In this document: one piece after another, positions 1 through 43,148 of the stretch
How the letters are laid out: each line of letters begins with the position of its first letter
How positions within the stretch are numbered: the stretch's first letter is position 1
Origin: an uncultured Pseudomonadales bacterium
Lineage (GTDB): Bacteria; Patescibacteriota; Microgenomatia; UBA1400; PJMF01
Reading direction: 5' to 3'
Assembly: GCA_964412775.1 (NCBI GenBank)
Contig: CAYPPX010000003.1
Coordinates: forward strand, 75,467-139,466
DNA: 64,000 nt
Translations under genes and position numbers: made by a program
The notes under the pieces: model-generated
The model's database searches: none
The model's input: only the letters and a program-made list of their open reading frames with translations
Told to the model about the DNA's origin: nothing

Positions 1-92
1 ATTCCACGGTTATTCATTTCATTACACAGATTATAAGCAATTTTAGCAGCTCCACCCCTGTAATCATGAGTACTGATGAATAATATTTTCAT
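1..92 (-). CDS. Partial CDS, 5' end of a GT4-type glycosyltransferase; continues beyond the window
   Basis: Reverse-complement of 1..92 reads MKILFISTHDYRGGAAKIAYNLCNEMNNRG, a typical GT4 N-terminus. Its ATG overlaps the stop codon of the ORF at 89..874 (ATGA coupling). Confidence 0.5.
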   Translation of the reverse strand, partial: MKILFISTHDYRGGAAKIAYNLCNEMNNRG

Positions 93-874
93 TGGTTTAT
101 TTTGGCTCGATAGTTTAAAAAATATTTTTTTAGTTTTGTTATTTCCATAAGTTTGTTAGCAAATAGTTTACTATTAAATAAGATAAAATATCTTAACGCA
201 GGTAATTTGCCAAAATTATTTAAGATTGAAAGATAGGTTTCAAAGTATGATTTCTTCAAATTAGAACTAGCCCCCTCGCCATTAAAATTACAGATAATTT
301 CATTTGTTTTTAAAGTTGTTAGGTTTTTTTCAGCAAAAATTTTACAAAGCAAATCAAAATCTGCTGCTAAAGTATAATTTTCATCAAACATAAATTTTTC
401 AATAAGTTTTTTCTTAATAAAATATGCTTGTTGGGGTATTTTTTGTCCTCTTTTTAAGTTATTTAGACTTAATTCTTTCTTGATAACATAATTATTTTTT
501 TCATTAGTGTAAGAAACTAAAGTATTACCATAGATAAAATCAGGTTGATTATAATTTTGAATTAATTTTGATAATTTTTTTATGAGATCATTGCTAAAAA
601 ATAAATCGCCAGAATTTAAAAAATAAAGATATTCACCACTAGCAAGCTCAACACCTTTATTCATGGCATTATAGATTCCAGAATCTTTTTCACTTATAAA
701 GTAGTCAATTTTTTTACTAAAAGACTTTATAATTTTTAGAGAGTTATCAGTGGATTTACCATCAATAATGATAAACTCTGCTTTTTTTTCCTGGTTAATA
801 ATACTTTCGATTGTTTTTTTTAAACCAACTTCATTATTTAAGTTTATAGTGATAACAGAAATTAGTGGTTTCAT
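89..874 (-). CDS. Family 2 glycosyltransferase (GT-A fold)
   Basis: N-terminal ISVITINLNNE...IIIDGKSTD with DXD-containing GT2 signature. 4-nt overlap with the next gene. Confidence 0.7.
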   Translation of the reverse strand: MKPLISVITINLNNEVGLKKTIESIINQEKKAEFIIIDGKSTDNSLKIIKSFSKKIDYFISEKDSGIYNAMNKGVELASGEYLYFLNSGDLFFSNDLIKKLSKLIQNYNQPDFIYGNTLVSYTNEKNNYVIKKELSLNNLKRGQKIPQQAYFIKKKLIEKFMFDENYTLAADFDLLCKIFAEKNLTTLKTNEIICNFNGEGASSNLKKSYFETYLSILNNFGKLPALRYFILFNSKLFANKLMEITKLKKYFLNYRAKINQ

Positions 875-1980
875 TTATTTAAGTATTTCTCATAACTTTC
901 TAATAAATTAGAAAAAGAATTTTGTTTTAAAAACTTTTCTTTCTCAATAGTAATCTTTTTTTCTAGACTGGAAAAGTCAATCTTACTATTTTCTATAGAT
1001 TCAAATATTTTTTCTAGGTCTTGATCATTTTTGTAGAAGATATTTGTTTTTTCATCTAAAATAACTTTATTAGCTGACAGATCAGAAGCAATGGTAACTT
1101 TATTTAGTAATAAGTGATGAATCGTTTTTAATCCGGGCTGTTTACCAGAAATTCTTGGTGATAAGCAGGCTAATGCATGACTCAAAAGGTAATTTGATTT
1201 TTTTAAACTAAGTTCACTTATAAACATTATATTTCTATTTTTTTTATATTTTTCAATTAGTTTTTTATCAGCTCTACCAATCAGTACTAAGTCAAACTTT
1301 CTCGTTTTCTGACTATAAATTTTAATAAAATTTTCTATTCCTTGGTATTTTTTAAAGTTACCACTATAGGCTAAATATGGTTTATTAGTCGGAATAGCTA
1401 TTTTTTGTATAGTAGTGTCTGTTTGATCATGAAATAAAATTGTTTTTTTATTTTCAAATAGCTTCTGTTGCTTATACATTGGCCAATTTAAAATAAAAAA
1501 ATTAAATCTTTTAACAATCAATTTTTCTACAAAATTAATAAGATATAATAGAATATTATTTTTATAATTATTTATTTCCAAATTGTCTTTAATTCTGTTG
1601 TGTAAATCATAAACAAAAATTAGTTTGGGATAAAAAAAACTAATAAATAAGCCAATACTAGCTGCTTCAAAATCTTCACAATGGATTACATCATATTTTT
1701 TATTTTTTAGTAAACTTAAGGCTTTTTTTAAAATCAAACAATCTAAATAGATTTTTTTTAGGGTAATTTTTCCTGCTTCTTGATTTAAAAAAATATTTTC
1801 TCCTACTTCAAAAAGGTTTATTTTGTTAAAACTTTCAGTTGTTGACTTGGTTTTATATGAAATTAAATCAATCTGGTGGTTTTGGGAGAGGATATTAGCA
1901 ATACTTTGAATTCTCAAAGTAGAGCCTTTGGCTCCGTAGTATGGGCTAGTAGTAATAATTAAAATTCTTTTTTTAGTCAT
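871..1980 (-). CDS. GT4-type (GT-B fold) glycosyltransferase
   Basis: RILIITTSPYYGAKGSTLRIQSIANIL N-terminus with GT-B organisation. Operon-coupled to both neighbours. Confidence 0.6.
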   Translation of the reverse strand: MTKKRILIITTSPYYGAKGSTLRIQSIANILSQNHQIDLISYKTKSTTESFNKINLFEVGENIFLNQEAGKITLKKIYLDCLILKKALSLLKNKKYDVIHCEDFEAASIGLFISFFYPKLIFVYDLHNRIKDNLEINNYKNNILLYLINFVEKLIVKRFNFFILNWPMYKQQKLFENKKTILFHDQTDTTIQKIAIPTNKPYLAYSGNFKKYQGIENFIKIYSQKTRKFDLVLIGRADKKLIEKYKKNRNIMFISELSLKKSNYLLSHALACLSPRISGKQPGLKTIHHLLLNKVTIASDLSANKVILDEKTNIFYKNDQDLEKIFESIENSKIDFSSLEKKITIEKEKFLKQNSFSNLLESYEKYLNK

Positions 1981-2899
1981 TGAATAAGTATTTTTTTAGG
2001 TTTCTTTTAATTTTTCCTTTAAAAATATCCCAAGAACTAGTTCTATAAATTTTCTTAAAATTATTTAAAATTTCTGCATTTAATATAACTTTATCAGGTA
2101 ATCTCATTTTTTGTGTGAATTTATAATCTAAGTTGTTACTATATTTTTTGTTTTTACTAGAGTGTTCTCCACTCCCATCTTGACCAATATTATCAACTAA
2201 CGGCTTTACTGGATACAGACAATAACCATGATTTTTAAACAAATGGTAAGCAAAACGAATCGCCCATGAATTTATCAAACCTTGCATCTGCATTTCTAAC
2301 ATACTATATAAATCGTTACCCCCTTGATTAAAATTTTTGATTTCAGTTGAATTTTTTTTAAATTTATCAAAATCTATAACTTGCCAATCAACCTTATTCC
2401 ACTTGTTTTTCCAGGTAGCCCAGCCCCAAGAGCTAGGTCTGGAAGTAAAAAAGACATCAAATTGGTAATTAGTTGGAATTTTTAATAATTGATTATCGAA
2501 ACTAAATCCAGAAATGGAAAAAATGTTTTCTTCAGTTTCATATCGTTGAAGCATGGTATTCATGAACTGAAGAAATGATGGATGAGTAACTAAGTCATCT
2601 TCTAGAATAATGACGGTTTTATGGGTTTCTAAGACTTTAGAAACTCCAGTTATTATCGAATTGGCTAAGCCAATGTTTGTTCCTTGGTTATTAATAATGA
2701 CTTTTTTAAATTTACTTTTATAAGAATCAACTACTTCTCTTGTTTTTATTACTTTTTTTGAATTAACATCTTTTTTAGGGCCATCGGCAAAAACGTATAA
2801 AGTGCTTTGATTAGCTAAAGTATTTTTGGCTAAAGAAGCTAAGGTTTGTTTGGTGTGTTCCGGCCTGTTATAGATAAAAAGAGCAATTGGTGAAATCAT
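1973..2899 (-). CDS. GT-A-like glycosyltransferase (family uncertain)
   Basis: IALFIYNRPEHTKQTLASL ... ILEDDLV acidic motif, Rossmann-like GT-A pattern. Confidence 0.45.
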   Translation of the reverse strand: MISPIALFIYNRPEHTKQTLASLAKNTLANQSTLYVFADGPKKDVNSKKVIKTREVVDSYKSKFKKVIINNQGTNIGLANSIITGVSKVLETHKTVIILEDDLVTHPSFLQFMNTMLQRYETEENIFSISGFSFDNQLLKIPTNYQFDVFFTSRPSSWGWATWKNKWNKVDWQVIDFDKFKKNSTEIKNFNQGGNDLYSMLEMQMQGLINSWAIRFAYHLFKNHGYCLYPVKPLVDNIGQDGSGEHSSKNKKYSNNLDYKFTQKMRLPDKVILNAEILNNFKKIYRTSSWDIFKGKIKRNLKKYLFND

Positions 2900-3636
2900 T
2901 TTATTTTCTTTACGAAAGTTACATTTGCTACAGACAAAAGTCTATCTGTTTTAATAAATATGTTTATTAATTTATCTAAGAGTTTAAATATTAAATAAAA
3001 AAATCTCTTAACATAAGGAAATTTATTTTTTTTGTGCCATATGTTTATTATTTTTTCGTTATATTTTGTAAACATCCATGGCTCTAAAACTACTCTTTGT
3101 TTTCTCATTTCTAATAGTTGGTCTGAATATTTATTAATTTCATTAAAAAGCTCATTAGGTTCCCAACAATAAACATGGTGTGGGTCAGTATTCCAAATAA
3201 CAGAATACTTTGAAGGAGATTTAATAATTCCAACACCCCCTGGCTCTAGTACTCTAATAATTTCTTTTACATAAAATTTACCAGTTTTTTTATCTAAATG
3301 TTCTATAACTTGATTCATTAAAACAAAAGAAAAATAATTATCTTTAAACGGTAATTTTTTATTATTTTCTAAAAAAAACTTTTTTACATTAACTTTCTTT
3401 TTGAGCAATGTAGCATAACCATAATTAGATCCTTCTAAGGCATAAACCTTGTAAGGGTAATTTTTAAGAGCTTCAATAAAAGATCCAACACCACTCCCTA
3501 TATCTAATATTCTTTGGAAACTCTTACCTTTATAGTTGATTTTTGCCTCATTTAATATATTTAAATAACTATAAATATTAACATCAGAATAGTATGTTTC
3601 TAATTTTTTCTCTAAAATACCTTTTTTATTTATCAT
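2896..3636 (-). CDS. Class I SAM-dependent methyltransferase
   Basis: ILDIGSGVGSFIEAL glycine-rich SAM-binding motif I, with downstream acidic motif II. Confidence 0.7.
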   Translation of the reverse strand: MINKKGILEKKLETYYSDVNIYSYLNILNEAKINYKGKSFQRILDIGSGVGSFIEALKNYPYKVYALEGSNYGYATLLKKKVNVKKFFLENNKKLPFKDNYFSFVLMNQVIEHLDKKTGKFYVKEIIRVLEPGGVGIIKSPSKYSVIWNTDPHHVYCWEPNELFNEINKYSDQLLEMRKQRVVLEPWMFTKYNEKIINIWHKKNKFPYVKRFFYLIFKLLDKLINIFIKTDRLLSVANVTFVKKIK

Positions 3637-3641
3637 TTTAT

Positions 3642-5783
3642 TTATTCAATTTTACTAATTAACTTATAATGTTCAAAGGTTTTTTTTATTTTTTCATCAT
3701 TTTTCCCATTGGTTACGTTTTCAAACCAAAGTGGGCTAAGTTGAAATCTTTTTATAGAGTAATAGTCATTTCTACCTGTATAAAGTACTTTTGTATTGTT
3801 TAATAAGCTCATAGCTTTAAACCATATATCATCAGCATCTTTACATATTTTTGTAAATTCATATTTATTAAAAACTTCAAGATTCAAGCTACCTGGAGGA
3901 TATAAAATTCCACCTAATCCTGTAGCAAAATTATTAAATGATATAGATTTTACTTTAGCTGGTTTCCAATTGATGTATTTTTCTAAATCATTATCATGAG
4001 TTTTCGTTATTTTGACACATCTATTTGCAATAATTAAATTTGGATTTTTATTGCTTTCATTAATTAAATTTTTTATAAAGTCTTTTTTATATATTGCATC
4101 ATCATCTATAGTAATTATTTTATAATTATTAAACTCTTTTAAACTATATAATAATTTTTTATAAGATTTTAAATTCTCATTAACATATATGATTTCTAGA
4201 CCTCTTTTAATTAATCTTTTTATTTTTTTATCATTTATGTCTTCAGAAAATTCTTCCTTAGAAAGATATAGACGAACTTTTTTAGGTTTATAACTTTGAT
4301 TTAAAATAGACTCAATTACAATATATATATTGTTAAATCTTTTTGGAAAAGTTGTTAAGCTTATTATTACATCACTGGAACTATTAACTCCTGATTTATT
4401 ACTAAATAAATTTACTAATTTTATTTTTACTATTAAAATTTCCAAATAAATGTTTTTAATTATGTAAAATAATCTCAATGACCTGATTAAATTAAAAGAT
4501 TTTAATTGCATATAGAAGCATTCTCTTGTCGACTTAAAAAAGTACAAACTAAAGAAATTAACAAAAAAATAGGAAAATATAGTTGAAAAAGCAGCTGCAA
4601 TTATTCCATATTCTTTGAGGAATATTAAATTTAATACAATATTTATTACTGCACCAATAGAAGTTCTTAATAGGGCATTAATTGTCTTATTTTCAGCTAC
4701 CACCCATTTTGAAGCAATTATTCCTAGAAAAACAAAAACGCCTGACCAAATGTGTACAGAAAGTATTGTAGAAGCATAAGAATATTCATGACCATACAAA
4801 ATATTTATTATTTGTCTTGAAAAAATAAATATTAATATACTTATAAATAAAGAAGCAATTGTTGATACATCAAATAAAAATTGCAATCTGTCTTTGTATA
4901 ATTTTTTACTTTTTTTTCTAGCTGATAATATATATGGAAAAATTGAAGATCCAATTATTGTTGGTATGAAATACCAAGCCTCAGAAAGTTTAACAGCAGA
5001 ATAATAAATCCCAACTTCCTTTGTACCAATCATTGATCCTATTAATATTTGGTCAACTTTCATATAAATAATTGAAGAGAATGCAGATAACATTATTGGC
5101 CAGCTATCAAAAAAAATTTCTTTTGAAATATTAAAATTTATTTTCCATTCAGTTATTTTCAATTTTTCTTTTTTCTTATAAAAATAAATTAAAAGTAGAA
5201 ATGTTATTAAATTCTCAATTAATATGGTAAATACAAAACTTGTAGTGTCTAATTTTATAAATATAAAATAAAATTTGAGTAGTGATACTATGGAAAATGA
5301 TATCAATCGTGATATTACTGGATATTTTGATTTTGTTTTTGATTGAAACCAAAAATCAATAACATCAAAAATTTTAAAATAATAGCTTATAGAAATTAAA
5401 AATATAAATATTTTTATTTTTAACTCTTCAATATTCAGGAAATTTACAAGAATAACTAGGAGGAAAGACATTATTATTGTACTAAGAATTTTTATAAATA
5501 ATGCACTTCCTAAATAATATTTTTCTTTACCTTTTTTATAAATAAAATCTCTTATTAATATATTATCTATACCAAAAGATCCAACCACTGCTGCTATTGA
5601 TACTAATGAAATTGCATAATTCATACTTCCAAATTCATCAGGACCTAAATACCTAGCAACCTGGCTTATTACAAATATTCCTATAAAACCCTTTAAAATA
5701 TTTTCTAGTATTAACCAATTAATATTTTTAAAAATTTTTAAAAATTCTTTGTTATCTATTATTGATTTAAAAATTTTTTTCAT
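3642..5783 (-). CDS. Fusion protein: Wzx/MOP-type oligosaccharide flippase (about 12 TM, N-terminal ~420 aa) plus C-terminal GT-A-like domain with DDD motif
   Basis: N-terminal half is polytopic with Wzx-like topology. C-terminal half is soluble: TTFPKRF...IITIDDDAIY...GLGGILYPPG. Confidence 0.55.
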   Translation of the reverse strand: MKKIFKSIIDNKEFLKIFKNINWLILENILKGFIGIFVISQVARYLGPDEFGSMNYAISLVSIAAVVGSFGIDNILIRDFIYKKGKEKYYLGSALFIKILSTIIMSFLLVILVNFLNIEELKIKIFIFLISISYYFKIFDVIDFWFQSKTKSKYPVISRLISFSIVSLLKFYFIFIKLDTTSFVFTILIENLITFLLLIYFYKKKEKLKITEWKINFNISKEIFFDSWPIMLSAFSSIIYMKVDQILIGSMIGTKEVGIYYSAVKLSEAWYFIPTIIGSSIFPYILSARKKSKKLYKDRLQFLFDVSTIASLFISILIFIFSRQIINILYGHEYSYASTILSVHIWSGVFVFLGIIASKWVVAENKTINALLRTSIGAVINIVLNLIFLKEYGIIAAAFSTIFSYFFVNFFSLYFFKSTRECFYMQLKSFNLIRSLRLFYIIKNIYLEILIVKIKLVNLFSNKSGVNSSSDVIISLTTFPKRFNNIYIVIESILNQSYKPKKVRLYLSKEEFSEDINDKKIKRLIKRGLEIIYVNENLKSYKKLLYSLKEFNNYKIITIDDDAIYKKDFIKNLINESNKNPNLIIANRCVKITKTHDNDLEKYINWKPAKVKSISFNNFATGLGGILYPPGSLNLEVFNKYEFTKICKDADDIWFKAMSLLNNTKVLYTGRNDYYSIKRFQLSPLWFENVTNGKNDEKIKKTFEHYKLISKIE

Positions 5784-5784
5784 A

Positions 5785-6528
5785 CTAATTTAGTAAATAA
5801 ATTTTAAAATTTTGAGTTTCTTTTATTAAGTTGTAATTTATATTTAATTCTAATTGTTCAATATAATTTTTATTATCTATTAAATTTTGTTTTTTACCCT
5901 TAATAATTTCTTCTCTGGTTGATTTATTAAAAATAATTTTAGTCCCATAAATATTAGTGAAGAAGTCCTTGTAGTTATTTTCACTTTTTTCTTGAATAAA
6001 GCAGTTAATATTATATTTTTTGAGTGTATTTTCTAAACCTAAAATATTAACATCTGAAACAAATTCTTTTGATTCTAAGATCTGGTTACCATTAATTTCT
6101 TCTGAATCAATAATTGGTGCGTAATAAGAATATGTATTTATACTATAAATGCATCTATTAAAACTATTAGTATTATTCTTAACGTACTCCTTTATTTCTA
6201 TGTAATTTATTCTATAAAATGACATTATTTCTAGGACTTTTATTTTCGAAATAAATAAAAAATAAGTAGTTATGATAATACTAACAATAAAATAAATATA
6301 GAAACTAACTTTACGGATTTTATTTATTAAAACGTATAGTGATATTAAAATAGGGATAATCAAAAAAATGTTGTAATAATTATGTATATAAATTACTTTA
6401 GAAGCTATTACTAAATAGGATAAAAAAGAACCTAAAATAGAAATTATAAAAATATCAGATTTTTGTTTAATTTCTTTGCTTATTATTATTTTTGTAAATG
6501 AAATAATAGCTAAAAAAAATAAAAACAT
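5785..6528 (-). pseudogene. Probable C-terminal part of the same membrane protein as 6467..7780 (frameshift, or a separate small membrane protein)
   Basis: Start codon is embedded in (A)8T(A)5CAT(A)6. Two TM helices then a ~150 aa soluble domain, matching the layout of the other GT-C/YfhO-like genes here. Confidence 0.3.
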
Positions 6529-7780
6529 AAAAAATTATTGGTTCAACGATAAAAACAAGTAAATTTTTAAATATTTTTTCATACATTGGTAAGTAAAAAA
6601 TTAAGTTTTTACTAGTAAGAAAATCGTCTGCATAAAAGAAAATTTTTTCTTTTAACAAAAATAAAGAAATTGAAGATATAGATATTAAAAATATAGAAAA
6701 GAAATATATAGTTTTTACAGGTAGTTTATTTAATTTTTTAAATAAAAATTCATTTGTAAATTTGTAAATCAAAATTATAGTTATAAACCATATGAAGTTA
6801 TTTAAAATATTTTGATATAGGCTTATTTTTGAATAATTAAAAACCACTAAAACTAGAGGTATAAATTGGCCTAAAGATAAAAATAGAAATATAAAGTTTT
6901 CTATAATTGTTTTTTTATAATTTTTATTATTCTTTAGAAAAGAACTAATAAACACTATTGGATATGTCCATATAAAAATTGAGCTTTTTGTAATTGTTCC
7001 TATTCCTAATGTTATTGCAGATAAAATTAAATATTTAACATTTCTATTTTTTTGATATTTTTCAAATAAAATTAATGATAAAAAAGTAAAAGTAATCAAA
7101 AGCGAATCTATAACAGTAACGTAATGAGAAAAATTTATAATTGGATTAAGTGCTATAACAGAAGTTGCTAGCACGGATGTGAAATAAGAAACTTTTTTAG
7201 ATAAATAAATGTAAATTAGTGTTAGATTTGTTATTAACAATAAGTGTAAAAATATCCTTGTTGCCAGTTCAATAGGTATATTTAAAAAATAATAAGTACT
7301 AGCTAACAACCATTCAAAAATTGGAAAATGATTTAGATCTAATTTTTCACCTTCCAAGTTGGAAACATTATTTAAATAATACTTTTTTTGGTAGTTAAAA
7401 ATATTTTTACTTTTGACAATATAGTTAGCTGGTTCTACGTAAGCGGCATATTTCATTGGGTGGTCAGTAGTAAATGGTGTATTAAAAAATTTAACCCTAA
7501 AAATAGTTAGAAATATAAAGAAAATAATAAGTAAAAAATTACTTATTACTCTTTCTCTTTTTAAAAAAAATTGTTCAATAGTAGATTCTTTTTTATTAGC
7601 TATTAAATATTTAAAATATTTATCAGAAAAAATTAATGTAACTGTTATTAGTGCTAAAAATGTAATTAATTTGAAAAATATTATTTCAACATAAAAGTTG
7701 ATTTTAAAAAAACTTAAAAAACTAATAGATAAACTAATAAAAACTAAAATTTTAATTATTTGTTGTAATTTTTTTTTCAT
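6467..7780 (-). CDS. Polytopic membrane protein, probable N-terminal part of a frameshift-interrupted GT-C-like gene
   Basis: More than 10 predicted TM helices. ORF ends in an A8/T8 homopolymer tract and overlaps the next ORF by 62 nt in another frame. Confidence 0.4.
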   Translation of the reverse strand: MKKKLQQIIKILVFISLSISFLSFFKINFYVEIIFFKLITFLALITVTLIFSDKYFKYLIANKKESTIEQFFLKRERVISNFLLIIFFIFLTIFRVKFFNTPFTTDHPMKYAAYVEPANYIVKSKNIFNYQKKYYLNNVSNLEGEKLDLNHFPIFEWLLASTYYFLNIPIELATRIFLHLLLITNLTLIYIYLSKKVSYFTSVLATSVIALNPIINFSHYVTVIDSLLITFTFLSLILFEKYQKNRNVKYLILSAITLGIGTITKSSIFIWTYPIVFISSFLKNNKNYKKTIIENFIFLFLSLGQFIPLVLVVFNYSKISLYQNILNNFIWFITIILIYKFTNEFLFKKLNKLPVKTIYFFSIFLISISSISLFLLKEKIFFYADDFLTSKNLIFYLPMYEKIFKNLLVFIVEPIIFYVFIFFSYYFIYKNNNKQRN

Positions 7781-8382
7781 TTTACTTCAAAAAACAACAG
7801 GTTTTTTTGTTTATTATCTTTTTTATTTTTTATAAATAATTCTTTTTTACCTTTATCCATCACCGGTACCTCAAAAACCACCTCTTTATCACTCCATTTT
7901 TTTATATTCATTTCTGCACCATCTAAATACACTTTTCCAGGCTCATGAGGCTCACCAAAGTTCTTACCAGTAATTCTCACTAAACTCCCCTGGATTCCCC
8001 AATCATTACTGAGTTTTTTGATTTTGGGGTATTGTTGTAAATCACTGTAAAAATGTGTGTATTGGTTATGAAAAAATAGAGTTATTAAGAATAACCCAAC
8101 AATAAAAAAATTAATTTTTGGCCATTTTATTAGCTGATTTTTAATACTAACAAGTGAAAATATAACTATTAGTAGTAAAAGATAAATAGTTGTGTATTTA
8201 TAATTTAAGCTATCATAAAGCCACCAATACTCAGTAGTTAAATACTGAAAAACATCAACCGTAACTAGAAAAATAGTTAAAATTATTAAACTTAGCAACA
8301 ACTCAGGTAGTAACTTAGACCAACTGAACTCAGTTGTTGTCTGTGGTTTCTTTGATTTCATAAAACTTGGGATTATAGGCAC
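7777..8382 (-). CDS. Small membrane protein (3-4 TM) with C-terminal IPT/TIG-like domain
   Basis: GSLVRITGKNFGEPHEPGKVYLDGAEMNIKKWSDKEVVFEVP matches the IPT/TIG consensus (G..I.G.NF....V.....A......S...I...VP). Confidence 0.5.
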   Translation of the reverse strand: MPIIPSFMKSKKPQTTTEFSWSKLLPELLLSLIILTIFLVTVDVFQYLTTEYWWLYDSLNYKYTTIYLLLLIVIFSLVSIKNQLIKWPKINFFIVGLFLITLFFHNQYTHFYSDLQQYPKIKKLSNDWGIQGSLVRITGKNFGEPHEPGKVYLDGAEMNIKKWSDKEVVFEVPVMDKGKKELFIKNKKDNKQKNLLFFEVK

Positions 8383-9250
8383 GAATAATTAGGTCCATAA
8401 TCAAACCACTAACAAAGATTTGAACACCAAATAACATCATAAACACTGCTACTAAGGGCCACATCCTTGTACCGATACCATGAAATAAAATAAATTTTTC
8501 AATCAGCATCCAAACAGCAATCAGGAAACCAACTCCAAAACTAAAGATACCTAGAGCCCCCAACATATGAAGTGGTCTAGCAGCAAACTTATGAAAAAAC
8601 CACAAAGTCAGCATATCCATGAAGCCTTTGATCGTTCTAGTCAGGTTGTATTTACTCACTCCAGAAAGTCTAGGTCTGTGTTTCACTGGCATCTCACCAA
8701 TCTTAAAACCACGCCACACCAATAGAGCTGGGATAAAACGATGCATTTCCCCTCTCAAAGTCATGCCTGTAAAACACTCTTTTTTGTAAACTCTCAGGGT
8801 ACAACCAGCATCATGAACATGATCTCGAATCAATATTTCTCTAAGGAATTTTGCTCCTCTAGAAATAAATCTCTTGCCCCAACTATCTTGTCTTTTTTGG
8901 CGCCAACCACAAACCACATCCAGCTTTTCTTGTTCCAATTTTGCAATCATCTCTGGGATACTAGCTGGATCATTTTGGAGATCTCCATCCAGAGATACCA
9001 CATACTTACCTTGGCTAGCTTTGAAGCCAGCATCTAGGGCCGCTGTTTGTCCAGAGTTTCTCCGTAGGGTAATTATTTTTAGGGGCTTGAGGGTTTTTAA
9101 AACTGCTGCTGTTCTATCTCTAGAGCCGTCATCAATAAAAATAATCTCGAACTCTTTTTTGAAAGTTTTGGCTACTTTAAGAATTTCTTCATGAAGTTTT
9201 TTGACATTGCCTTCTTCATTAAAAATCGGTACAACAAAGGAAATATACAT
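8330..9250 (-). CDS. Polyprenol-phosphate glycosyltransferase, GtrB/ArnC/DPM1-like GT2 with C-terminal TM helices
   Basis: ISFVVPIFNEEGNV...FIDDGSRDRTAAV...RNSGQTAALDAGF followed by 2 TM helices, the bactoprenol-P sugar transferase architecture. Confidence 0.7.
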   Translation of the reverse strand: MYISFVVPIFNEEGNVKKLHEEILKVAKTFKKEFEIIFIDDGSRDRTAAVLKTLKPLKIITLRRNSGQTAALDAGFKASQGKYVVSLDGDLQNDPASIPEMIAKLEQEKLDVVCGWRQKRQDSWGKRFISRGAKFLREILIRDHVHDAGCTLRVYKKECFTGMTLRGEMHRFIPALLVWRGFKIGEMPVKHRPRLSGVSKYNLTRTIKGFMDMLTLWFFHKFAARPLHMLGALGIFSFGVGFLIAVWMLIEKFILFHGIGTRMWPLVAVFMMLFGVQIFVSGLIMDLIIRAYNPKFYEIKETTDNN

Positions 9251-14041: not shown

Positions 14042-15214
14042 TCAAGCTACCCAATAGCCTTGAATAAACAGCAATGTGTTTATTATAAGCAACAATAGGC
14101 TCAGGGCTAGCAGAGAAAGTTTTTTAGCTTTATTTTCATTTATCCACTCGGCTAATAAATAGTAAATTGGCCAGGCTACCATAATATATCTAGGCATACT
14201 CGAAAATGTGCCAGTCAGAGTAGGCACAGTAATCACTGTTAAAGCAAAAAGCAAATAAGCAAGTCTAATTTTTTTCCAGTTAAATAACAGTATGGCAAAC
14301 GCACCAAGAGAAAAAACAAACTCTTGGAGATAGGCATAAAACTTCCAATCGATCGGTGTCGTGGTAAAAATTTTGAGGTAACGCCAAATGACTTGTGGTA
14401 GCAAAATTAAATCTTCTTGCCTACCAGCACCGAATTCACTTTGCACCTTAAAAAAGTATAGAGGGTCATGGAAAAATTGATTTAAATAAAGCATATAGGT
14501 CAACAAGCCCAAAGTAGAGCTAGAAATAGCTACTACTTCACGCCAGTTAGTTTTTAGTTCTTTAACTAAATTTTGCCGATTTAGTTGGAGGTTTTTACTT
14601 TGCCACCATTCAATTAGTAGAGCTGGCCAAATAGCGATCCCCACCACTCTTGTTGCTGAAGCTAATGCTCCAAATATCCCAGCCAACCACCAATTATTTT
14701 TTTTCGCAAAAAGGAAACTGGTTAAAATTAAACCTAAAAATAAGCCCTCGTTATATAGTGCCGCCAAAAATAAACTATTAGGAAACACTAATAATAAGGT
14801 AATTGTTAACCAGCCAATTTTGGTGGACTTTTTTAGCATGACTGTTACAAAATAAAAAAATAGTAATACTAATAAATAGGTCGTAAAAAATTGCAGTAAT
14901 AAGGTCATCAAGAAAAAATACTGCCCAAATATGGCTTTTAGCAAGCTCAATATCAAGGGAAAAACTGGAAAAAACGCCTGAATTAGGCCAGTTCCCAGAT
15001 AACCTTTGTCAGCAATGGTCAAATAATGGACACCATCAAAATTCGCCCATGAATATAACCAGCGAGCTACATTTAACTTTGCCAAAATTTCACTGCTATA
15101 CGGGAAACTAGGATCATAGTTCAAAAAATGATCAGCAAAAAAACCAACTAAAAATAAAATCAAGCGCCAGCTGATGACTAAGTAAAGTAGTTTTTTCCAA
15201 GGTAAATTTTTCAC
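14042..15214 (-). CDS. Polytopic membrane protein, mannosyltransferase-like (PIG-V/GT-C-like motif)
   Basis: W-x-x-FDGVHYLTIADKGY motif resembling the W..D..Y..IA..GY box of PIG-V-type mannosyltransferases. About 9 TM helices. Confidence 0.4.
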   Translation of the reverse strand: MKNLPWKKLLYLVISWRLILFLVGFFADHFLNYDPSFPYSSEILAKLNVARWLYSWANFDGVHYLTIADKGYLGTGLIQAFFPVFPLILSLLKAIFGQYFFLMTLLLQFFTTYLLVLLFFYFVTVMLKKSTKIGWLTITLLLVFPNSLFLAALYNEGLFLGLILTSFLFAKKNNWWLAGIFGALASATRVVGIAIWPALLIEWWQSKNLQLNRQNLVKELKTNWREVVAISSSTLGLLTYMLYLNQFFHDPLYFFKVQSEFGAGRQEDLILLPQVIWRYLKIFTTTPIDWKFYAYLQEFVFSLGAFAILLFNWKKIRLAYLLFALTVITVPTLTGTFSSMPRYIMVAWPIYYLLAEWINENKAKKLSLLALSLLLLIINTLLFIQGYWVA

Positions 15215-21983: not shown

Positions 21984-23819
21984 TTACATTTCCTCTGGTG
22001 TTTGCACACCCAGTAAACCCAAACCATATTCCAAAACATTAGCAGTTGCTTGAGTCAGAACAGTTCTTCTTTCTCTGGCATCAGAGTTTTCAGCATTAAT
22101 AATTTGGTGAGTATTATAAAAAGCATTAAAACGTTGAGCCAATTCAAAAAGGTAACCAGCTAAGTGATGAGGGGCAAACTCAGCGGCTGCTTTTTCTACT
22201 AACTCAACAAAACGATCTAAATGACGAGCTAAATTTAGCTCAACAGCATCTAATTTCCAAGAATCATCACCAAAAGCTGGTGAAAACTCTTCTAGAGCGG
22301 CTTTTCTCAACACACTTTTGGCTCTAACAGCCGCGTATTGAACATAAGGGCCGGAATTACCCTTCATACTGAGAATTTCATCCCAATCAAAAATAATATC
22401 GCGACTGGTTTCACTTTTGAGATCATTCCATTTCAAAGCACCAATGGCCACAGCATCGGTAGAACTCATTAATGAAGAAGGTCTTAATGTTTTTGGTCTA
22501 TTTGATGATCTAGAAATTACTTCTGTGTCTTTAAACTCTAAAGTATGTTTTGACATTAAACGAGCTCGTTTTTTGGCTTCATCAATTACATCTTCCAACC
22601 AAATCACATTACCTTTTCTAGTCGACATTTTTTTGTCTTTAAAGCGGTATAAACCATGTTTTACATGAACTCTTTGGCCTGGTTGATACCAACCCATGAT
22701 TTGTTCGACGGCATAGATCTGTTGAAAATATAAAGCTTGTTCAGCACCGACTTCATTCACAATTAAGTCTGGTTTTTCTTTTTTCAACCTATAGTAATCA
22801 GTGGCAAAATCTCGAGTGGAATACAAAGTAGCGCCATCTTGCTTCAACACCATTAGTGGCGGATATTGATCATTTTCAAAGAAAATTAATTTTGCACCAT
22901 TTTCACCTTCAGCACAATGAGCTCCATTAGTTACTGCATCCTCTGGAGTAAGCTTAGACTCTAGCAATTTAACTACTTCAGTCATTTTATCTTCAAAAAA
23001 TGACTCACCGTAACCTCGACCATTATTTTCTGAAAAAGATACTCCTAATTCACCATAAATTTGTTGAAATTCTTGCCAAGATAAATCAATACACCATTGC
23101 CATAATGCTTTGGCTTCTGGATCACCTTCTTCTAGTTTTTTAAACCAAGCTCGACCAGCATTTTCAATTTCTGGTTCTTTTTCAGCCTCATCATGAAATT
23201 TAACATATAGTTGAACTAACTCTTTAATTGGTCGGTCTGACTTTGCAATTTCTGCTTGTTTACCCCAAGTTTTAATTGCATAGATTAATTTACCGAATTG
23301 AGTACCCCAATCACCAAGATGGTTATCTCTCAAAACCTGCCAACCAATCGCTTCATAAAGATTAGCGATCGCATCACCAATAATTGTCGAACGTAAATGA
23401 CCCACCGTAAACGGCTTAGCAATGTTGGGTGAAGAATACTCAACGATTACTTTCTTGGCTTTATTTTTTGTGGTTAATTCTTTAAATAAAGCTTGAGGTT
23501 TAGTTTCAGCTAGTTTAATTGTCTGGGTGCGAAAATATTCATGAGCCAATTTAAAGTTAATAAAACCTGGTCCAGCAATCTCAATCTGCCAAACTTCAGG
23601 CAATTCAGCTAAATTACTTTTCAATTCACTAACAATCTTTTCGGCTAGGGCTCGAGGATTATTAAAACCTTCAATTTGCTTGCAATATTGTAAAGCAACA
23701 TTAGTGCTCCAATCACCATGATTTTCATCGGCTGGATGTTCTAAGTTAACTCTGGGATTAGTAATCCCTAAGTTTATTAAAACAGCATTGATTTGTTGAT
23801 GTAATGAATTAACTAACAT
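21984..23819 (-). CDS. argS: Arginine--tRNA ligase
   Basis: N-terminal add-1 domain, class I HIGH-region equivalent (PNIAKPFTVGHLRST), DALR anticodon-binding domain at the C-terminus. Confidence 0.85.
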   Translation of the reverse strand: MLVNSLHQQINAVLINLGITNPRVNLEHPADENHGDWSTNVALQYCKQIEGFNNPRALAEKIVSELKSNLAELPEVWQIEIAGPGFINFKLAHEYFRTQTIKLAETKPQALFKELTTKNKAKKVIVEYSSPNIAKPFTVGHLRSTIIGDAIANLYEAIGWQVLRDNHLGDWGTQFGKLIYAIKTWGKQAEIAKSDRPIKELVQLYVKFHDEAEKEPEIENAGRAWFKKLEEGDPEAKALWQWCIDLSWQEFQQIYGELGVSFSENNGRGYGESFFEDKMTEVVKLLESKLTPEDAVTNGAHCAEGENGAKLIFFENDQYPPLMVLKQDGATLYSTRDFATDYYRLKKEKPDLIVNEVGAEQALYFQQIYAVEQIMGWYQPGQRVHVKHGLYRFKDKKMSTRKGNVIWLEDVIDEAKKRARLMSKHTLEFKDTEVISRSSNRPKTLRPSSLMSSTDAVAIGALKWNDLKSETSRDIIFDWDEILSMKGNSGPYVQYAAVRAKSVLRKAALEEFSPAFGDDSWKLDAVELNLARHLDRFVELVEKAAAEFAPHHLAGYLFELAQRFNAFYNTHQIINAENSDARERRTVLTQATANVLEYGLGLLGVQTPEEM

Positions 23820-40351: not shown

Positions 40352-41658
40352 TTCCAATAAGTAGTTGCGTCCATGGTTAAAGCTACAAAAATGTTGGTGA
40401 CAATTAGTAATAACAAAATTAAAAAATAAATAAATTTACTTATTTTCTTTAGATTTAGGCTCTCAAACAAAACTGGTAAAAAACCAACTGAAAAAATGCC
40501 TCTCATTGACCAAATAGATAAAGATTCTAGTAAGTTTAGTTTCAAAAAAGCTAAATTGAATAGCGGTAACAATAATAACCATGTCATTCCAGCCAGTAAC
40601 CAAAGCCTTTTTTCTTGAATTAATTTAATTAACTCAACCAGATTGATAATTAAAGTTGGCCACAATAAATAATCATACCAGCCATGATAAGTTGTCCCTC
40701 CTACAGAAAACAAGATAAAAACTAAGTTAATTAAAAATGTAATATTTAAAAATAAATATTTTTTATCTTTGTTAGCAAGCATAAGAATTGAAGCAAAAAA
40801 ACCTAAAATTTTCCAACCATCAAATAATAAGTGTCTGATCACCACCGGATGAATAAATAGCCGATTTTGGAGGGTTACAAAACTTAAATCCCTGGTAGAT
40901 TGACTTGAAAGTAACTTCAAAAATAATGAAAAATCATAAATTGCTCCATAAATAAAAAATAAACTAATGCCTACCAGTAAACCAAATAAACTTGCTTTGA
41001 ATAATTTCCAATTTTTTTCTAAAAAAGCATAAGCCAAAATTGAAACTGGAATCACTAAACCAGCAACTTTTGTCAAAACTGCTAGCAAACTTAAGATAAA
41101 AACTAATTTAATCGACCATTTTTTGTCTAAATTAAACACTGCACAATAGGCTAAAATTGTCCAAGTAACTAATAAATTTTCAGCCACCACTAACCGGCTA
41201 CCAAAAACCAATGTTGGAATAGTGATAAACAAAGTCGTTGCTAATAAAGAAAATCTTTTCTTGCTAAAAAATTTATCAACCACTAACCAAAATAAACCAA
41301 CATTTAGTGCTCCCAATAAAATCATCGGGAAACGAACTAATTTAGCCGAAGGAAAATCTAACCAATGAGCTTTTAAACTTTGAGCTAATCCTGGTAACAA
41401 AGAAAACAATGGTGGATGATCAAAAGCTGGTCTAACAACTGGTGCATCATAAACTCCAGTTTTGTAAATGTATTTATCTTCATAATCAGTAAAATATGAC
41501 CAAGAGGCAGGAACTTTTTCTTGAATTAACGAAGCACCAAGCATCGTCCAAGCCCATTCATCAGCTGTTTCACCAAAAACAGGAAAGTGATAATAATTAT
41601 AAACTCTAATTAAAAATCCTATGATTACCAACAATAAAAAAATAGCTATTTTCTTCAT
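40312..41658 (-). CDS. PMT-family (GT39-like) membrane glycosyltransferase
   Basis: PAFDHPPLFSLLPGL motif, polytopic. Confidence 0.5.
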   Translation of the reverse strand: MKKIAIFLLLVIIGFLIRVYNYYHFPVFGETADEWAWTMLGASLIQEKVPASWSYFTDYEDKYIYKTGVYDAPVVRPAFDHPPLFSLLPGLAQSLKAHWLDFPSAKLVRFPMILLGALNVGLFWLVVDKFFSKKRFSLLATTLFITIPTLVFGSRLVVAENLLVTWTILAYCAVFNLDKKWSIKLVFILSLLAVLTKVAGLVIPVSILAYAFLEKNWKLFKASLFGLLVGISLFFIYGAIYDFSLFLKLLSSQSTRDLSFVTLQNRLFIHPVVIRHLLFDGWKILGFFASILMLANKDKKYLFLNITFLINLVFILFSVGGTTYHGWYDYLLWPTLIINLVELIKLIQEKRLWLLAGMTWLLLLPLFNLAFLKLNLLESLSIWSMRGIFSVGFLPVLFESLNLKKISKFIYFLILLLLIVTNIFVALTMDATTYWNQAAFFDVNNPLR

Positions 41659-43148
41659 TTATTAAGTAAATTTTTTACTTCTCTGAAAATTCGTTGGTGC
41701 CCTACTAACAAAATTACCACCAAATAAACAAAAGAGGTTACAAACATGCCAAGCAACATTGTTCTCAAACTAGTTGCCCAATAATTTAGTTGCCAGCAAC
41801 CAACCAAGGTCATCATCGCTACTCCAACTGTTGCTTCCTTAATTTGAGGTAAGATTTCTAATGGAATATATTTTTTAACCATTTGCACCGAAAAAATTGA
41901 AGTAAAAGAAATCAAAAAAGCTGCCAAAGCTACACCGTTGAAACCTAGCCACCACATCATGATTGGGGTCAAAATCCAAGTCAAAACAGTCCACATCACC
42001 ATCAATTTTAAAGTTTGATTAATATGACCAATCGCATTGAGAGTATTAACTAGTGGCGTTGATAAAGCTGCCCAACCAATGCTCAAGGCAAAGAAAATAA
42101 AACTAAAAATGGCTGGTTCCCACTTGGCATATTTATCGACAACTTGAGTAAGTGGCCAAATAAAGATACTCATTCCTGCTAGGATCGGAAAAATTGCTAA
42201 AGAAATAAAGAAAATTGATTTTTCAATCGCTTTTTTTAGTAAATCTTGGTGATTTTGCAATCTAGAATAAGTTGGGAAAGTAATAGCCATAACATTTTGC
42301 ACAGTTAAATTATATGGATACATAGACCAATTTTTTGCCCATTGAATATAACCGAATTGATCTAATGGTAAAAATGCACCCAAACCCAGATAAAAAAGTT
42401 GATCTTTTATCCTGGCTAAAAAATCGTTTAACTGAAATTTTAAACCGAAGTTCAACATTGATTTTAAAACATTACTACTCCAAAAAAAGCCAATCTCTTT
42501 CCAAGGTTCAATCAGCCACATTACCACTACACCAATTAACGATCTAGCAATAATTGCATAAGCATAAGCCATCACCCCAAAACCTTTTAAAGCTAAAACA
42601 ATCAACAAACCATAAAAAACAATTTGTTCAAAAATTTGGGGAATAACTAGCCTTTGAAACAATAATTTTCTCTCCAATTTGATTGAAGAAACAGTTTTTA
42701 GGGTAGCTAGAGGAAAAGAAATCGCCAAACTTAATAAAACCCAAACACCAGCTTGACCTACTTTGGCTTGAATAAAACCAAAACTTAATAAGCTCAAGAT
42801 TACTGCCACAATCACCCAAGACAATAACCACTGTAAAGTAAAAGCAACTCGATATTCTTCATTTTTAGGATCATTTTTTTGCTGAACGAGTGAGGCTGCT
42901 AAACCAATATCAGAGAAAAAAATCAATAAACCAATAATTTGCGTCACATAACCATAAACACCAAAATCACTTGGTGAAAAAAATGCACTCAAAATAAAAG
43001 CAGCAACTAACCCAATTCCTTGTAAAAAAGCAGTTCTAAAAAAATATGAAATAACTCCAGAAACAGATTTTCTTTTTATTTCTGCTACTTCATCAGTCAT
43101 TAGTTCTTCAAGCTCATCGGTTGTATCGGCTACTGTTTGATTAATCAT
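41655..43148 (-). CDS. Wzx/MOP-superfamily oligosaccharide flippase
   Basis: About 12-14 TM helices and the length and topology of polysaccharide biosynthesis (PST/Wzx) proteins. Confidence 0.6.
   Translation of the reverse strand: MINQTVADTTDELEELMTDEVAEIKRKSVSGVISYFFRTAFLQGIGLVAAFILSAFFSPSDFGVYGYVTQIIGLLIFFSDIGLAASLVQQKNDPKNEEYRVAFTLQWLLSWVIVAVILSLLSFGFIQAKVGQAGVWVLLSLAISFPLATLKTVSSIKLERKLLFQRLVIPQIFEQIVFYGLLIVLALKGFGVMAYAYAIIARSLIGVVVMWLIEPWKEIGFFWSSNVLKSMLNFGLKFQLNDFLARIKDQLFYLGLGAFLPLDQFGYIQWAKNWSMYPYNLTVQNVMAITFPTYSRLQNHQDLLKKAIEKSIFFISLAIFPILAGMSIFIWPLTQVVDKYAKWEPAIFSFIFFALSIGWAALSTPLVNTLNAIGHINQTLKLMVMWTVLTWILTPIMMWWLGFNGVALAAFLISFTSIFSVQMVKKYIPLEILPQIKEATVGVAMMTLVGCWQLNYWATSLRTMLLGMFVTSFVYLVVILLVGHQRIFREVKNLLNK

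What the first reader, a model, noticed from the sequence alone, without database searches (positions are those of the whole stretch)
3642..5783. Wzx-like flippase fused to a cytoplasmic GT-A glycosyltransferase domain
A single 713-aa ORF joins a 12-TM MOP/Wzx-type flippase to a soluble C-terminal GT-A-like domain with a DDD motif. The fusion could couple the last sugar addition on a lipid-linked intermediate directly to its translocation. That arrangement is uncommon.
Basis: seen in the sequence. Interest (0 to 1): 0.5.

Follow-up and report, generated by a model that had tools for sequence, protein, structure and literature searches.

The report
Flippase fused to a sugar-adding enzyme
One real, conserved 713-residue gene in an uncultured candidate-phyla-radiation bacterium joins a membrane flippase for lipid-linked sugars to a KfiA-like sugar-adding enzyme; the two are separate neighbouring genes in relatives, so this is a rare fusion, but no new kind of machinery.

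Summary
Window 3642..5783, on the minus strand, is one 713-aa ORF. An independent assembly of the same run reproduces it base for base.

- **N-terminal domain (residues 1-415):** a 12-helix MOP/PST (Wzx-type) flippase. Pfam Polysacc_synt scores 103 bits, and the model superposes on WzxE and MurJ.
- **Linker (416-471):** two basic helices.
- **C-terminal domain (472-713):** a GT-A glycosyltransferase with invariant DDD (560-562) and ADD (650-652). By fold and by profile it is closest to KfiA/PmHS2 and EXTL2 (GT45/GT64), not to canonical GT2.

Seven other proteins, 48-53% identical, carry the same fusion. Their flippase domains form one clade with 100% bootstrap support. A sister locus has the two halves as separate genes overlapping by 11 nt, in the same gene order. 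The linker helix matches the N-terminal helix of standalone GTs. So two neighbouring genes merged once.

The fusion is rare: one 50%-identity cluster among 1.84 billion representatives. However, other flippase fusions also turned up (GT4-flippase, flippase-methyltransferase).

The host is Candidatus Pacebacteria-like (CPR), so this is not an O-antigen system in the strict sense.

Nothing here tests whether the last sugar addition is coupled to flipping. Verdict: genuine, uncommon variant of known parts, moderate interest.

The parts
3642..5783 (-). Complete fused gene: 713 codons plus stop (stop at 3642..3644).
   Evidence: ORF list and translation. Identical in the independent Logan contig L001. 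Same architecture in P0002-P0008.
4539..5783 (-). MOP/PST (Wzx-type) flippase domain, residues 1-415, about 12 transmembrane helices.
   Evidence: Pfam Polysacc_synt 102.8 bits, Polysacc_synt_3 76.1 bits, MatE 38 bits. The AlphaFold model is all-helical to residue 415. Foldseek matches MurJ and WzxE. 133 of 415 columns are invariant among the 8 fused proteins.
4371..4538 (-). Junction, residues 416-471: a basic tail after the last membrane helix, helix 417-428, helix 432-460, then a loop. The second helix corresponds to the N-terminal helix of standalone GT homologues.
   Evidence: Secondary structure of the model. Standalone GTs start with the same motif '...Y..N(L/F)(F/L)S.K.G(V/I)...'. This is the least conserved part: 41% mean pairwise identity in helix 432-460 and 23% in the 461-471 loop. 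It is rich in K/R and contains no stop and no conserved internal Met.
3645..4370 (-). GT-A glycosyltransferase domain, residues 472-713, KfiA/EXTL2-like.
4098..4106 (-). DDD motif, residues 560-562: the DXD metal/nucleotide-sugar site of GT-A enzymes.
   Evidence: All three positions are invariant in the 8 fused proteins. The first two Asp are invariant and the third at least 90% conserved in 57 homologues. The motif aligns with 'DDDiiYP' of KfiA and PmHS2.
3828..3836 (-). A-D-D motif, residues 650-652, within 'ADDIWFKAM': a second conserved acidic pair and candidate catalytic residues.
   Evidence: D651, D652, W654 and F655 are invariant in the 8 fused proteins and in 57 homologues. The catalytic role is inferred, not shown.
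2896..3636 (-). Downstream SAM-dependent methyltransferase (246 aa), a conserved partner of the fused gene.
   Evidence: Pfam Methyltransf_11. It sits directly after the flippase/GT in L002, L004, L053 and L054.
1973..2899 (-). Glycosyltransferase (308 aa, weak GT2 match), a conserved partner.
   Evidence: Pfam. Syntenic at 42-52% identity in L002, L004 and L054.
89..1980 (-). GT4 (871..1980) and GT2 WcaE-like (89..874) glycosyltransferases of the same operon.
   Evidence: Pfam and NCBIfam. Syntenic in L002 and L004.
5785..7780 (-). Upstream PMT_2 (GT-C type) membrane glycosyltransferase, split here into two ORFs (6467..7780 and 5785..6528). Its stop lies 1 nt from the start of the fused gene.
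   Evidence: Pfam PMT_2. tblastn of the 664-aa L002 orthologue places residues 1-422 in frame -1 and 432-664 in frame -2.

Best explanation
This is a genuine bifunctional protein made by merging two neighbouring genes of a cell-surface glycan operon in a CPR (Candidatus Pacebacteria-like) lineage.

**Shown.**
- An N-terminal 12-helix MOP/PST flippase is joined to a complete KfiA-like GT-A glycosyltransferase.
- The join runs through the flippase's basic tail after its last membrane helix and the GT's own N-terminal helix.
- All fused proteins form one clade.
- An outgroup locus keeps the two halves as separate genes overlapping by 11 nt, in the same gene order.

**Inferred.**
- The GT domain sits on the cytoplasmic face. 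MOP flippases with 12 helices end in the cytoplasm, and the tail after the last helix is rich in K/R.
- It uses its DDD motif with a divalent metal to take a sugar from a nucleotide sugar. By its nearest relatives this is possibly an alpha-linked HexNAc from a UDP-sugar.
- It adds that sugar to a polyprenyl-diphosphate-linked oligosaccharide built together with the neighbouring GT4, GT2 and methyltransferase.
- The covalently attached flippase domain then moves the finished lipid-linked unit to the outer face.
- The tether guarantees 1:1 stoichiometry and holds the GT at the mouth of the transporter. It replaces translational coupling and a weak membrane-anchoring helix with a covalent link.
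- Whether this GT performs the last step, and whether there is true substrate hand-over, is unknown.
For: **The ORF is real.** An independent assembly is identical across the whole ORF, and 7 divergent full-length homologues exist.

**Both halves are under constraint.** Of the aligned columns, 133 of 415 are invariant in the flippase and 68 of 242 in the GT. These include DDD and ADD, while the linker has drifted.

**Flippase identity.** Supported by Pfam and by fold.

**Origin of the fusion.**
- L054 and L055 have the flippase P0013 (445 aa, 47% identical) followed by an overlapping 280-aa GT that is 46% identical to the C-terminal half. Then come the methyltransferase, a GT and a GT4, the same order as in the window.
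- The unfused flippase ends '...KSFNLLRLFNVK*' and its GT starts 'MSNSLKAFFLKIIYNLYNLFSKKSGV'.
- The fused protein reads '...KSFNLIRSLRLFYIIKNIYLEILIVKIKLVNLFSNKSGV'.

**Single origin.** The fused flippase domains, together with P0009, form one clade with 100/100 bootstrap support. P0009 comes from an error-ridden 1.8x-coverage contig in which GT fragments follow the flippase.

**Confident whole-protein model.** Full-length pLDDT is 93.8 and pTM 0.82.

**Topology background.** WzxE has 12 helices, and the arginine-rich C-terminus of WzxO157 lies on the cytoplasmic surface (PMC11706664).
Against: - There are no biochemical data for any member of this GT family. The top hits carry only names such as 'hypothetical protein' or 'glycosyltransferase family A protein'.
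- The profile match to KfiA covers only the N-terminal half of the domain.
- The family is rarely next to a flippase elsewhere: 4 of 44 genome loci. The association is therefore lineage-specific and could be selectively near-neutral.
- No priming phosphoglycosyltransferase or recognisable Wzy polymerase was identified in the window.
- The inter-domain geometry could not be inspected, because no coordinates or PAE were returned.
Confidence: 0.7

Rival explanations
1. Strict gatekeeping or channelling. The GT domain adds the final, specificity-determining sugar, and the product passes directly into the attached flippase, so only completed units are exported.
For: Wzx flippases discriminate between lipid-linked units by particular residues, including terminal or side-branch sugars (PMC6436433). 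The fusion has persisted through divergence to 48-53% identity with both halves conserved. The full-length model has a high pTM of 0.82, which hints at a defined domain arrangement. In the unfused relative the two genes overlap, consistent with coupled expression.
Against: Nothing identifies this GT as the last step. Four other cytoplasmic enzymes sit in the same operon. Standalone members of the GT family are usually not adjacent to a flippase: 4 of 44 loci. The linker is the least conserved region. Flippases are also found fused to other enzymes, GT4 and a methyltransferase, which fits opportunistic merging of neighbours.
Confidence: 0.2
2. MprF-like logic. The GT domain glycosylates polyprenyl phosphate to make a polyprenyl-P-monosaccharide. 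The MOP domain flips this donor to the outer face, where the many neighbouring GT-C (PMT_2) enzymes use it.
For: The window carries at least seven GT-C-like membrane proteins that need such donors outside the cell. One of them lies directly upstream of the fused gene. Flippase domains fused to the enzyme that makes their lipid substrate are known, as in MprF/PplT, including fusions to GT-A and GT-B domains (bioRxiv 10.1101/2022.03.11.483950).
Confidence: 0.06
3. Artefact: a sequencing or assembly frameshift falsely joined two genes.
For: The neighbouring PMT_2 gene is frameshifted in this window. In the unfused relative the two genes overlap out of frame, so a single-base error could join them.
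Against: An independent assembly is identical. Eight divergent sequences from different samples and assemblers are all in frame through a junction region of variable sequence. There is no run of six or more A or T at residues 430-470. The apparent splits in L053 and L050 are, respectively, a scaffold gap of N and a 1.8x-coverage contig with many frameshifts.
Confidence: 0.02
4. The C-terminal domain is a catalytically dead GT-A fold that serves as a substrate-binding or regulatory module for the flippase.
For: The Pfam GT2 score is marginal, and below the cutoff in several fused homologues: P0002 at 20.0 bits and P0006 at 19.4 bits.
Against: The DDD and ADD motifs and about 18 further positions are invariant across 57 fused and standalone homologues. 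Standalone homologues number 3930 hits among the 8000 candidates scored, which fits an active enzyme family.
Confidence: 0.03

Closest known systems
Wzx / PST-family MOP flippases (e.g. E. coli WzxE, PDB 9G9P; MurJ, PDB 6NC6)
   Same: Same Pfam families (Polysacc_synt, Polysacc_synt_3, MatE) and the same all-helical MOP fold. Located in a glycan gene cluster. Unfused relatives of about 440 aa are 35-50% identical, and many are named 'flippase' or 'O-antigen/teichoic acid export membrane protein'.
   Different: It carries about 300 extra C-terminal residues that form a complete glycosyltransferase. It reaches no NCBIfam equivalog cutoff (Wzx_EPS 52 bits against 800). The host is a CPR bacterium rather than a Gram-negative with O antigen.
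KfiA (E. coli K5) and the GlcNAc-transferase domain of Pasteurella heparosan synthase PmHS2 (CAZy GT45); EXTL2/EXTL3 (GT64)
   Different: Identity is only 18-20%. The profile match covers only the N-terminal half. The window's domain has an extra N-terminal helix and is attached to a transporter. KfiA and PmHS2 build a polymer exported by an ABC transporter (general knowledge), not a Wzx substrate. Retaining chemistry and a UDP-GlcNAc donor are not established here.
Uncharacterised standalone GT-A family of about 270-310 aa ('glycosyltransferase family A protein', mostly 'hypothetical protein')
   Same: 35-51% identical over the whole C-terminal half, including the linker helix. Found in Bacteroidota, Gammaproteobacteria (Salinicola, Shewanella, Francisella), Actinomycetota, Tannerella and Woesearchaeota.
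   Different: These are separate genes. Only 4 of 44 lie within about 4 kb of a PST-like flippase.
MprF / PplT proteins (flippase domain fused to the synthase of its lipid substrate)
   Same: The same design principle: a cytoplasmic lipid-modifying enzyme fused to a membrane flippase domain. GT-A and GT-B fusions to PplT have been reported.
   Different: An unrelated flippase fold and family, with phospholipid rather than polyprenyl-linked glycan substrates.
Membrane-embedded GT2 synthases (BcsA, hyaluronan synthase)
   Different: Synthases are processive and form their own channel. The GT2-synthase signature Q-x-x-R-W is absent from the window's protein. Here the transporter is a separate, complete MOP domain.
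Other MOP-flippase fusions seen here (P0315 GT4+flippase, 832 aa; P0292 flippase+methyltransferase, 657 aa)
   Same: Close flippase homologues (38-39% identical) fused to a cytoplasmic glycan-building enzyme.
   Different: The partner domains and the domain order differ. They were not examined in genomic context.

Membership tests
MOP superfamily, PST (Wzx-type) flippase | Sequence match to Polysacc_synt / Polysacc_synt_3 above Pfam's curated cutoff | tested here: met
   102.8 bits against 28.2, and 76.1 bits against 23.
MOP superfamily, PST (Wzx-type) flippase | About 12 transmembrane helices in the MOP fold | tested here: met
   The model is helical from residue 2 to 415 (pLDDT 93.8). Foldseek gives WzxE 9g9p TM 0.76 on the target and MurJ 6nc6 E 2.8e-8. 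The helix count is read from DSSP and is approximate.
MOP superfamily, PST (Wzx-type) flippase | Membership of a named orthologous group (NCBIfam equivalog) | tested here: not met
   The best hit, Wzx_EPS, scores 52.3 bits against a cutoff of 800. MurJ scores 19 against 235. The protein is therefore a PST-family member with no assigned specific subfamily.
MOP superfamily, PST (Wzx-type) flippase | Translocates polyprenyl-PP-linked oligosaccharides | not testable with these tools
   Inferred from the family and from the operon of GT and sugar-nucleotide genes.
GT-A fold glycosyltransferase | Single Rossmann-like alpha/beta/alpha domain superposable on GT-A enzymes | tested here: met
GT-A fold glycosyltransferase | DXD motif after the fourth beta-strand | tested here: met
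   D560, D561 and D562 are all invariant in the 8 fused proteins. The first two are invariant and the third at least 90% conserved in 57 homologues. The motif aligns to the DDD of KfiA and PmHS2.
CAZy GT2 (Pfam Glycos_transf_2) | Score above the Pfam gathering threshold | tested here: inconclusive
   The window protein scores 24.2 to 26.6 bits against 23.3, but the fused homologues P0002 (20.0) and P0006 (19.4) fall below. Most standalone homologues have no precomputed Pfam hit.
CAZy GT45 / GT64 (KfiA, PmHS2 GlcNAc-T, EXTL2) | Closest sequence-profile and structural relatives | tested here: met
CAZy GT45 / GT64 (KfiA, PmHS2 GlcNAc-T, EXTL2) | Conservation of the C-terminal-half catalytic residues | tested here: inconclusive
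   The profile alignment to KfiA beyond about residue 160 is not significant (second stretch scores -3.5 bits). No residue-level structural alignment was available.
CAZy GT45 / GT64 (KfiA, PmHS2 GlcNAc-T, EXTL2) | Retaining alpha-HexNAc transfer from a UDP-sugar | not testable with these tools
   Needs an enzyme assay.
Processive membrane GT2 synthase (BcsA/HAS type) | Q-x-x-R-W motif and a channel formed by the synthase's own transmembrane helices | tested here: not met
   No Q/R-x-x-R-W anywhere in the protein. The membrane part is a complete MOP transporter.

The most novel reading that the evidence does not exclude
The fusion is a natural 'Rosetta stone'. It would show that a Wzx-type flippase works in direct physical contact with one particular cytoplasmic glycosyltransferase. 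On this reading the GT domain completes the lipid-linked unit at the cytoplasmic mouth of the transporter and hands it over, so export is gated by that final sugar. The protein would then be a ready-made single-chain complex for testing how Wzx flippases receive and select their substrates.
Probability: 0.2. Interest if true: 0.6.

Novelty: new variant of a known kind. Interest (0 to 1): 0.35.

Why it matters
How Wzx flippases obtain and select completed lipid-linked sugar units, and whether they sit in a complex with the cytoplasmic glycosyltransferases, is still debated (see PMC6436433). A conserved natural fusion of a Wzx-type flippase with one specific glycosyltransferase predicts that the two interact, and it comes with an unfused sister pair for comparison. 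That gives a compact system for structural and split-versus-fused experiments.

It also puts a first functional context on a large family of KfiA-like GT-A proteins that are mostly annotated as hypothetical. Separately, it shows a CPR (Pacebacteria-like) bacterium devoting more than 55 kb to surface glycan synthesis.

The parts themselves are ordinary. Only the architecture is unusual.

Tried and rejected
- **Single-sequence PDB search of the C-terminal half.** It gave only spurious HSP90 hits. The family profile was needed to reach KfiA and PmHS2.
- **afdb50 fold search of the full-length model.** This was meant to look for the same architecture in UniProt, but the library was not available.
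- **Apparent 'split' versions of the gene.**
  - L053 (448 aa + 240 aa) is interrupted by a scaffold gap of N.
  - L050 (P0009) is a 1.8x-coverage contig with many frameshifts.
  - Neither is evidence of a natural split.
- **Home-made hydropathy scan.** It over-split the helices and was not used for the helix count. The AlphaFold secondary structure was used instead.
- **First bootstrap tree.** It timed out and was redone with a lighter NJ script.
- **Literature searches.** Searches for a described Wzx-glycosyltransferase fusion found none. The library is limited to open-access papers, so this is not proof of absence.
- **Taxonomy of the nearest fused homologue.** Its 'Pseudomonadales' label was considered and rejected as the taxon. 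The window's ArgRS is 91% identical to one from Candidatus Pacebacteria, and the labelled contig is 28.6% GC and syntenic with the window over 11 genes.
- **Priming transferase and Wzy polymerase.** A search of the window found no recognisable candidates. The 390-aa membrane protein at 14042..15214, with 7 or more hydrophobic segments, remains a possible Wzy.
Full report
**1. Observation**

The ORF listing and translation show one ATG-initiated ORF of 713 codons at window 3642..5783. It lies on the minus strand, which the finding did not say. The window is 33% GC, so stop codons are frequent and a 2.1-kb open frame is not a chance event.

The gene is tightly packed in a minus-strand operon. 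The upstream ORF ends 1 nt before its ATG, and the downstream methyltransferase starts 5 nt after its stop.

**2. Is the read-through real?**

- A contig assembled independently by Logan from run SRR5011273 (L001, 2554 bp) is 100% identical to window 3364..5917 and encodes the same 713-aa protein.
- The junction (residues 430-470) has no run of six or more A or T.
- A search of 5.8 billion proteins found seven further 90%-identity clusters (P0002-P0008, 728-733 aa, 48-53% identical) that align end to end with the query.
- These come from different assemblies: NCBI GCA_964537665.1, JGI 3300027796, ENA and Logan.
- Two apparent split versions are artefacts. L053 has a run of N exactly at the junction. 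L050 is a 1.8x-coverage contig with multiple frameshifts.

A frameshift artefact is therefore excluded. The concern was still reasonable, because the PMT_2 gene immediately upstream is frameshifted in this window.

**3. The two halves**

*N-terminal half.*
- Pfam Polysacc_synt covers residues 18-285 at 102.8 bits against a 28.2-bit cutoff. Polysacc_synt_3 and MatE also match, and MurJ matches weakly.
- The full-length AlphaFold model (80-sequence alignment, pLDDT 93.8, pTM 0.82) is helical through residue 415.
- Foldseek matches it to MurJ (6nc6, E 2.8e-8), a MATE transporter, and the Wzx flippase WzxE (9g9p, TM 0.76 on the target, rmsd 4.1 over 413 columns).
- It reaches no NCBIfam equivalog cutoff. 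It is a PST-family flippase of no named subtype.

*C-terminal half.*
- The Pfam GT2 match is marginal (24.2-26.6 bits against 23.3) and falls below the cutoff in some fused homologues.
- A model of residues 437-713, built on 57 homologues, has pLDDT 94.9 and a classic alpha/beta GT-A layout.
- Foldseek ranks the GlcNAc-transferase site of Pasteurella heparosan synthase PmHS2 first (8viw, E 4.7e-10). Further PmHS2 crystal forms follow, then E. coli K5 KfiA (5z8b).
- A profile of the family finds KfiA (E 5.3e-6) and PmHS2 (E 7e-6) as the only credible solved relatives. They share 'S-YP-R ... DDD-(I/L)-YP'.
- D560, D561 and D562 are invariant in the 8 fused proteins. In 57 homologues the first two are invariant and the third is at least 90% conserved. 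A second acidic pair, D651-D652 within 'ADDIWFKAM', is invariant in both sets.

More precisely, the domain sits in the GT45/GT64 neighbourhood rather than in typical GT2. Stereochemistry and donor sugar remain unproven.

**4. Origin of the fusion**

- The C-terminal domain belongs to a large family of standalone proteins of about 270-310 aa. The search returned 3930 hits among the 8000 candidates scored. Most are 'hypothetical'. They occur in Bacteroidota, Gammaproteobacteria, Actinomycetota and Woesearchaeota.
- Their first 40 or so residues form a helix with the same motif as the linker of the fused protein.
- In loci L054 and L055, a flippase 47% identical to the N-terminal half (P0013, 445 aa) is followed by a 280-aa gene that overlaps it by 11 nt, out of frame. 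That gene is 46% identical to the C-terminal half. After it come the same methyltransferase, GT and GT4 as in the window.
- The unfused flippase ends '...KSFNLLRLFNVK*' and its GT begins 'MSNSLKAFFLKIIYNLYNLFSKKSGV'. The fused protein reads straight through the equivalent sequence.
- In an NJ tree of flippase domains, all eight fused proteins plus P0009 (the degraded contig) form one clade with 100/100 bootstrap support. Unfused relatives lie outside it.

The simplest history is a single event: a small indel in the overlap joined two translationally coupled genes.

Both domains have stayed conserved since then. Mean pairwise identity is 62% for the flippase and 55% for the GT. The linker helix has drifted to 41% but stayed basic and hydrophobic.

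**5. How common is it?**

An exhaustive HMMER scan of 1.84 billion 50%-identity representatives found exactly one representative (P0008) with this architecture. In one genome per species (185,579 species), only one contig carries it.

The top 150 flippase representatives also include a GT4-flippase fusion (P0315, 832 aa) and a flippase-methyltransferase fusion (P0292, 657 aa). MOP flippases do therefore occasionally merge with neighbouring pathway enzymes.

Standalone members of the GT family are rarely near a flippase: 4 of 44 loci within about 4 kb. The pairing is specific to this lineage.

**6. Host and context**

- The window's arginyl-tRNA synthetase is 91% identical to one from 'Candidatus Pacebacteria bacterium'. 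The next hits, at 72-75%, include other Pacebacteria, followed at lower identity by Paceibacterota, Levybacteria and Roizmanbacteria.
- An LCP (LytR-CpsA-Psr) gene is present. The host is therefore a CPR/Patescibacteria bacterium, and the product is better called a cell-surface glycopolymer than an O antigen.
- Nearly the whole window from 89 to about 58.8 kb encodes glycan functions: many GT2/GT4 enzymes, at least seven GT-C-like membrane proteins, two polyprenyl-phosphate glycosyltransferases, a second unfused flippase, and sugar-nucleotide enzymes.
- The closest fused homologue's contig is filed under a 'Pseudomonadales' MAG. That contig is 28.6% GC and syntenic with the window over 11 genes, so it is probably mis-binned.

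**7. Mechanism**

*Shown:* the architecture, the conservation, the fold assignments, and the origin from adjacent genes.

*Inferred:*
- A 12-helix MOP flippase ends in the cytoplasm. [quoted passage not shown] The GT domain is therefore cytoplasmic, as it must be to use nucleotide sugars.
- The GT domain probably adds one sugar to a polyprenyl-PP-linked oligosaccharide made with the neighbouring enzymes, and the attached flippase exports the unit.
- The tether fixes stoichiometry and proximity.

Whether it enforces 'last sugar, then flip' is attractive, given that Wzx flippases prefer particular residues of their cognate units (PMC6436433). That idea is untested.

An MprF-like alternative has the GT making a polyprenyl-P-sugar that the MOP domain flips for the GT-C enzymes. 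It has a precedent in principle. It is disfavoured by the KfiA/EXTL2-like fold and by the presence of dedicated ArnC-like enzymes.

**8. Verdict**

This is a real, conserved and rare domain fusion of two well-known kinds of protein, arising from neighbouring genes in a CPR lineage. It is a new variant of a known kind.

Interest is moderate (0.35). The main value is as a natural hint, and an experimental handle, for physical coupling between Wzx flippases and cytoplasmic glycosyltransferases. It also gives a first context for a large unannotated KfiA-like GT family.

Noticed in passing
window 5785..7780 (minus strand): The PMT_2 (GT-C) membrane glycosyltransferase just upstream of the fused gene is split into two overlapping ORFs (437 aa and 247 aa) by a frameshift in a T-rich tract. 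The orthologue in L002 is a single 664-aa gene, and tblastn switches from frame -1 to -2 between its residues 422 and 432. This could be a pseudogene, phase variation or a homopolymer sequencing error.
   Followed up: partly
window 21984..23819 (ArgRS) and the whole window: The organism is a CPR/Patescibacteria bacterium. Its ArgRS is 91% identical to a 'Candidatus Pacebacteria' MAG protein. GC is 33%. An LCP-family gene lies at 44981..46138.
   Followed up: yes
L002/L005 (NCBI CAZIBP010000004.1): The contig carrying the closest fused homologue is deposited in a MAG named 'uncultured Pseudomonadales bacterium'. It is 28.6% GC and syntenic with the Pacebacteria-like window over 11 genes at 44-75% amino-acid identity, so it is probably mis-binned.
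   Followed up: partly
window 89..~58800: An exceptionally long glycan island for a small-genome lineage. It holds about a dozen or more GT2/GT4 genes, at least seven PMT_2/PTPS_related GT-C-like membrane proteins, two ArnC-like polyprenyl-phosphate glycosyltransferases (8330..9250, 52453..53619) and GDP-mannose dehydratase. It also holds UDP-glucose dehydrogenase and several epimerases. The ArgRS gene interrupts the island.
   Followed up: partly
window 41655..43148 (minus strand): A second, unfused MOP flippase (497 aa, Polysacc_synt_3 at 151 bits) lies in the same island, next to another PMT_2 protein and an unknown 623-aa ORF. This suggests at least two separately exported glycans.
   Followed up: no
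P0315 and P0292 (from the representative search): Other flippase fusions exist among close homologues: a GT4 glycosyltransferase N-terminal to a flippase (832 aa), and a flippase with a C-terminal methyltransferase (657 aa).
   Followed up: partly
L014 (Arenicellales MAG) and L038 (Photobacterium aphoticum): The KfiA-like GT domain lies within stop-to-stop open frames of 575 and 584 aa, which suggests fusions of this GT family to other, unidentified domains.
   Followed up: no
window 7777..8382 (minus strand): A 201-aa protein with three hydrophobic segments and a C-terminal IPT/TIG domain sits between the ArnC-like gene and the PMT_2 gene. It is conserved in L002 at 51% identity. Its role is unknown.
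   Followed up: no
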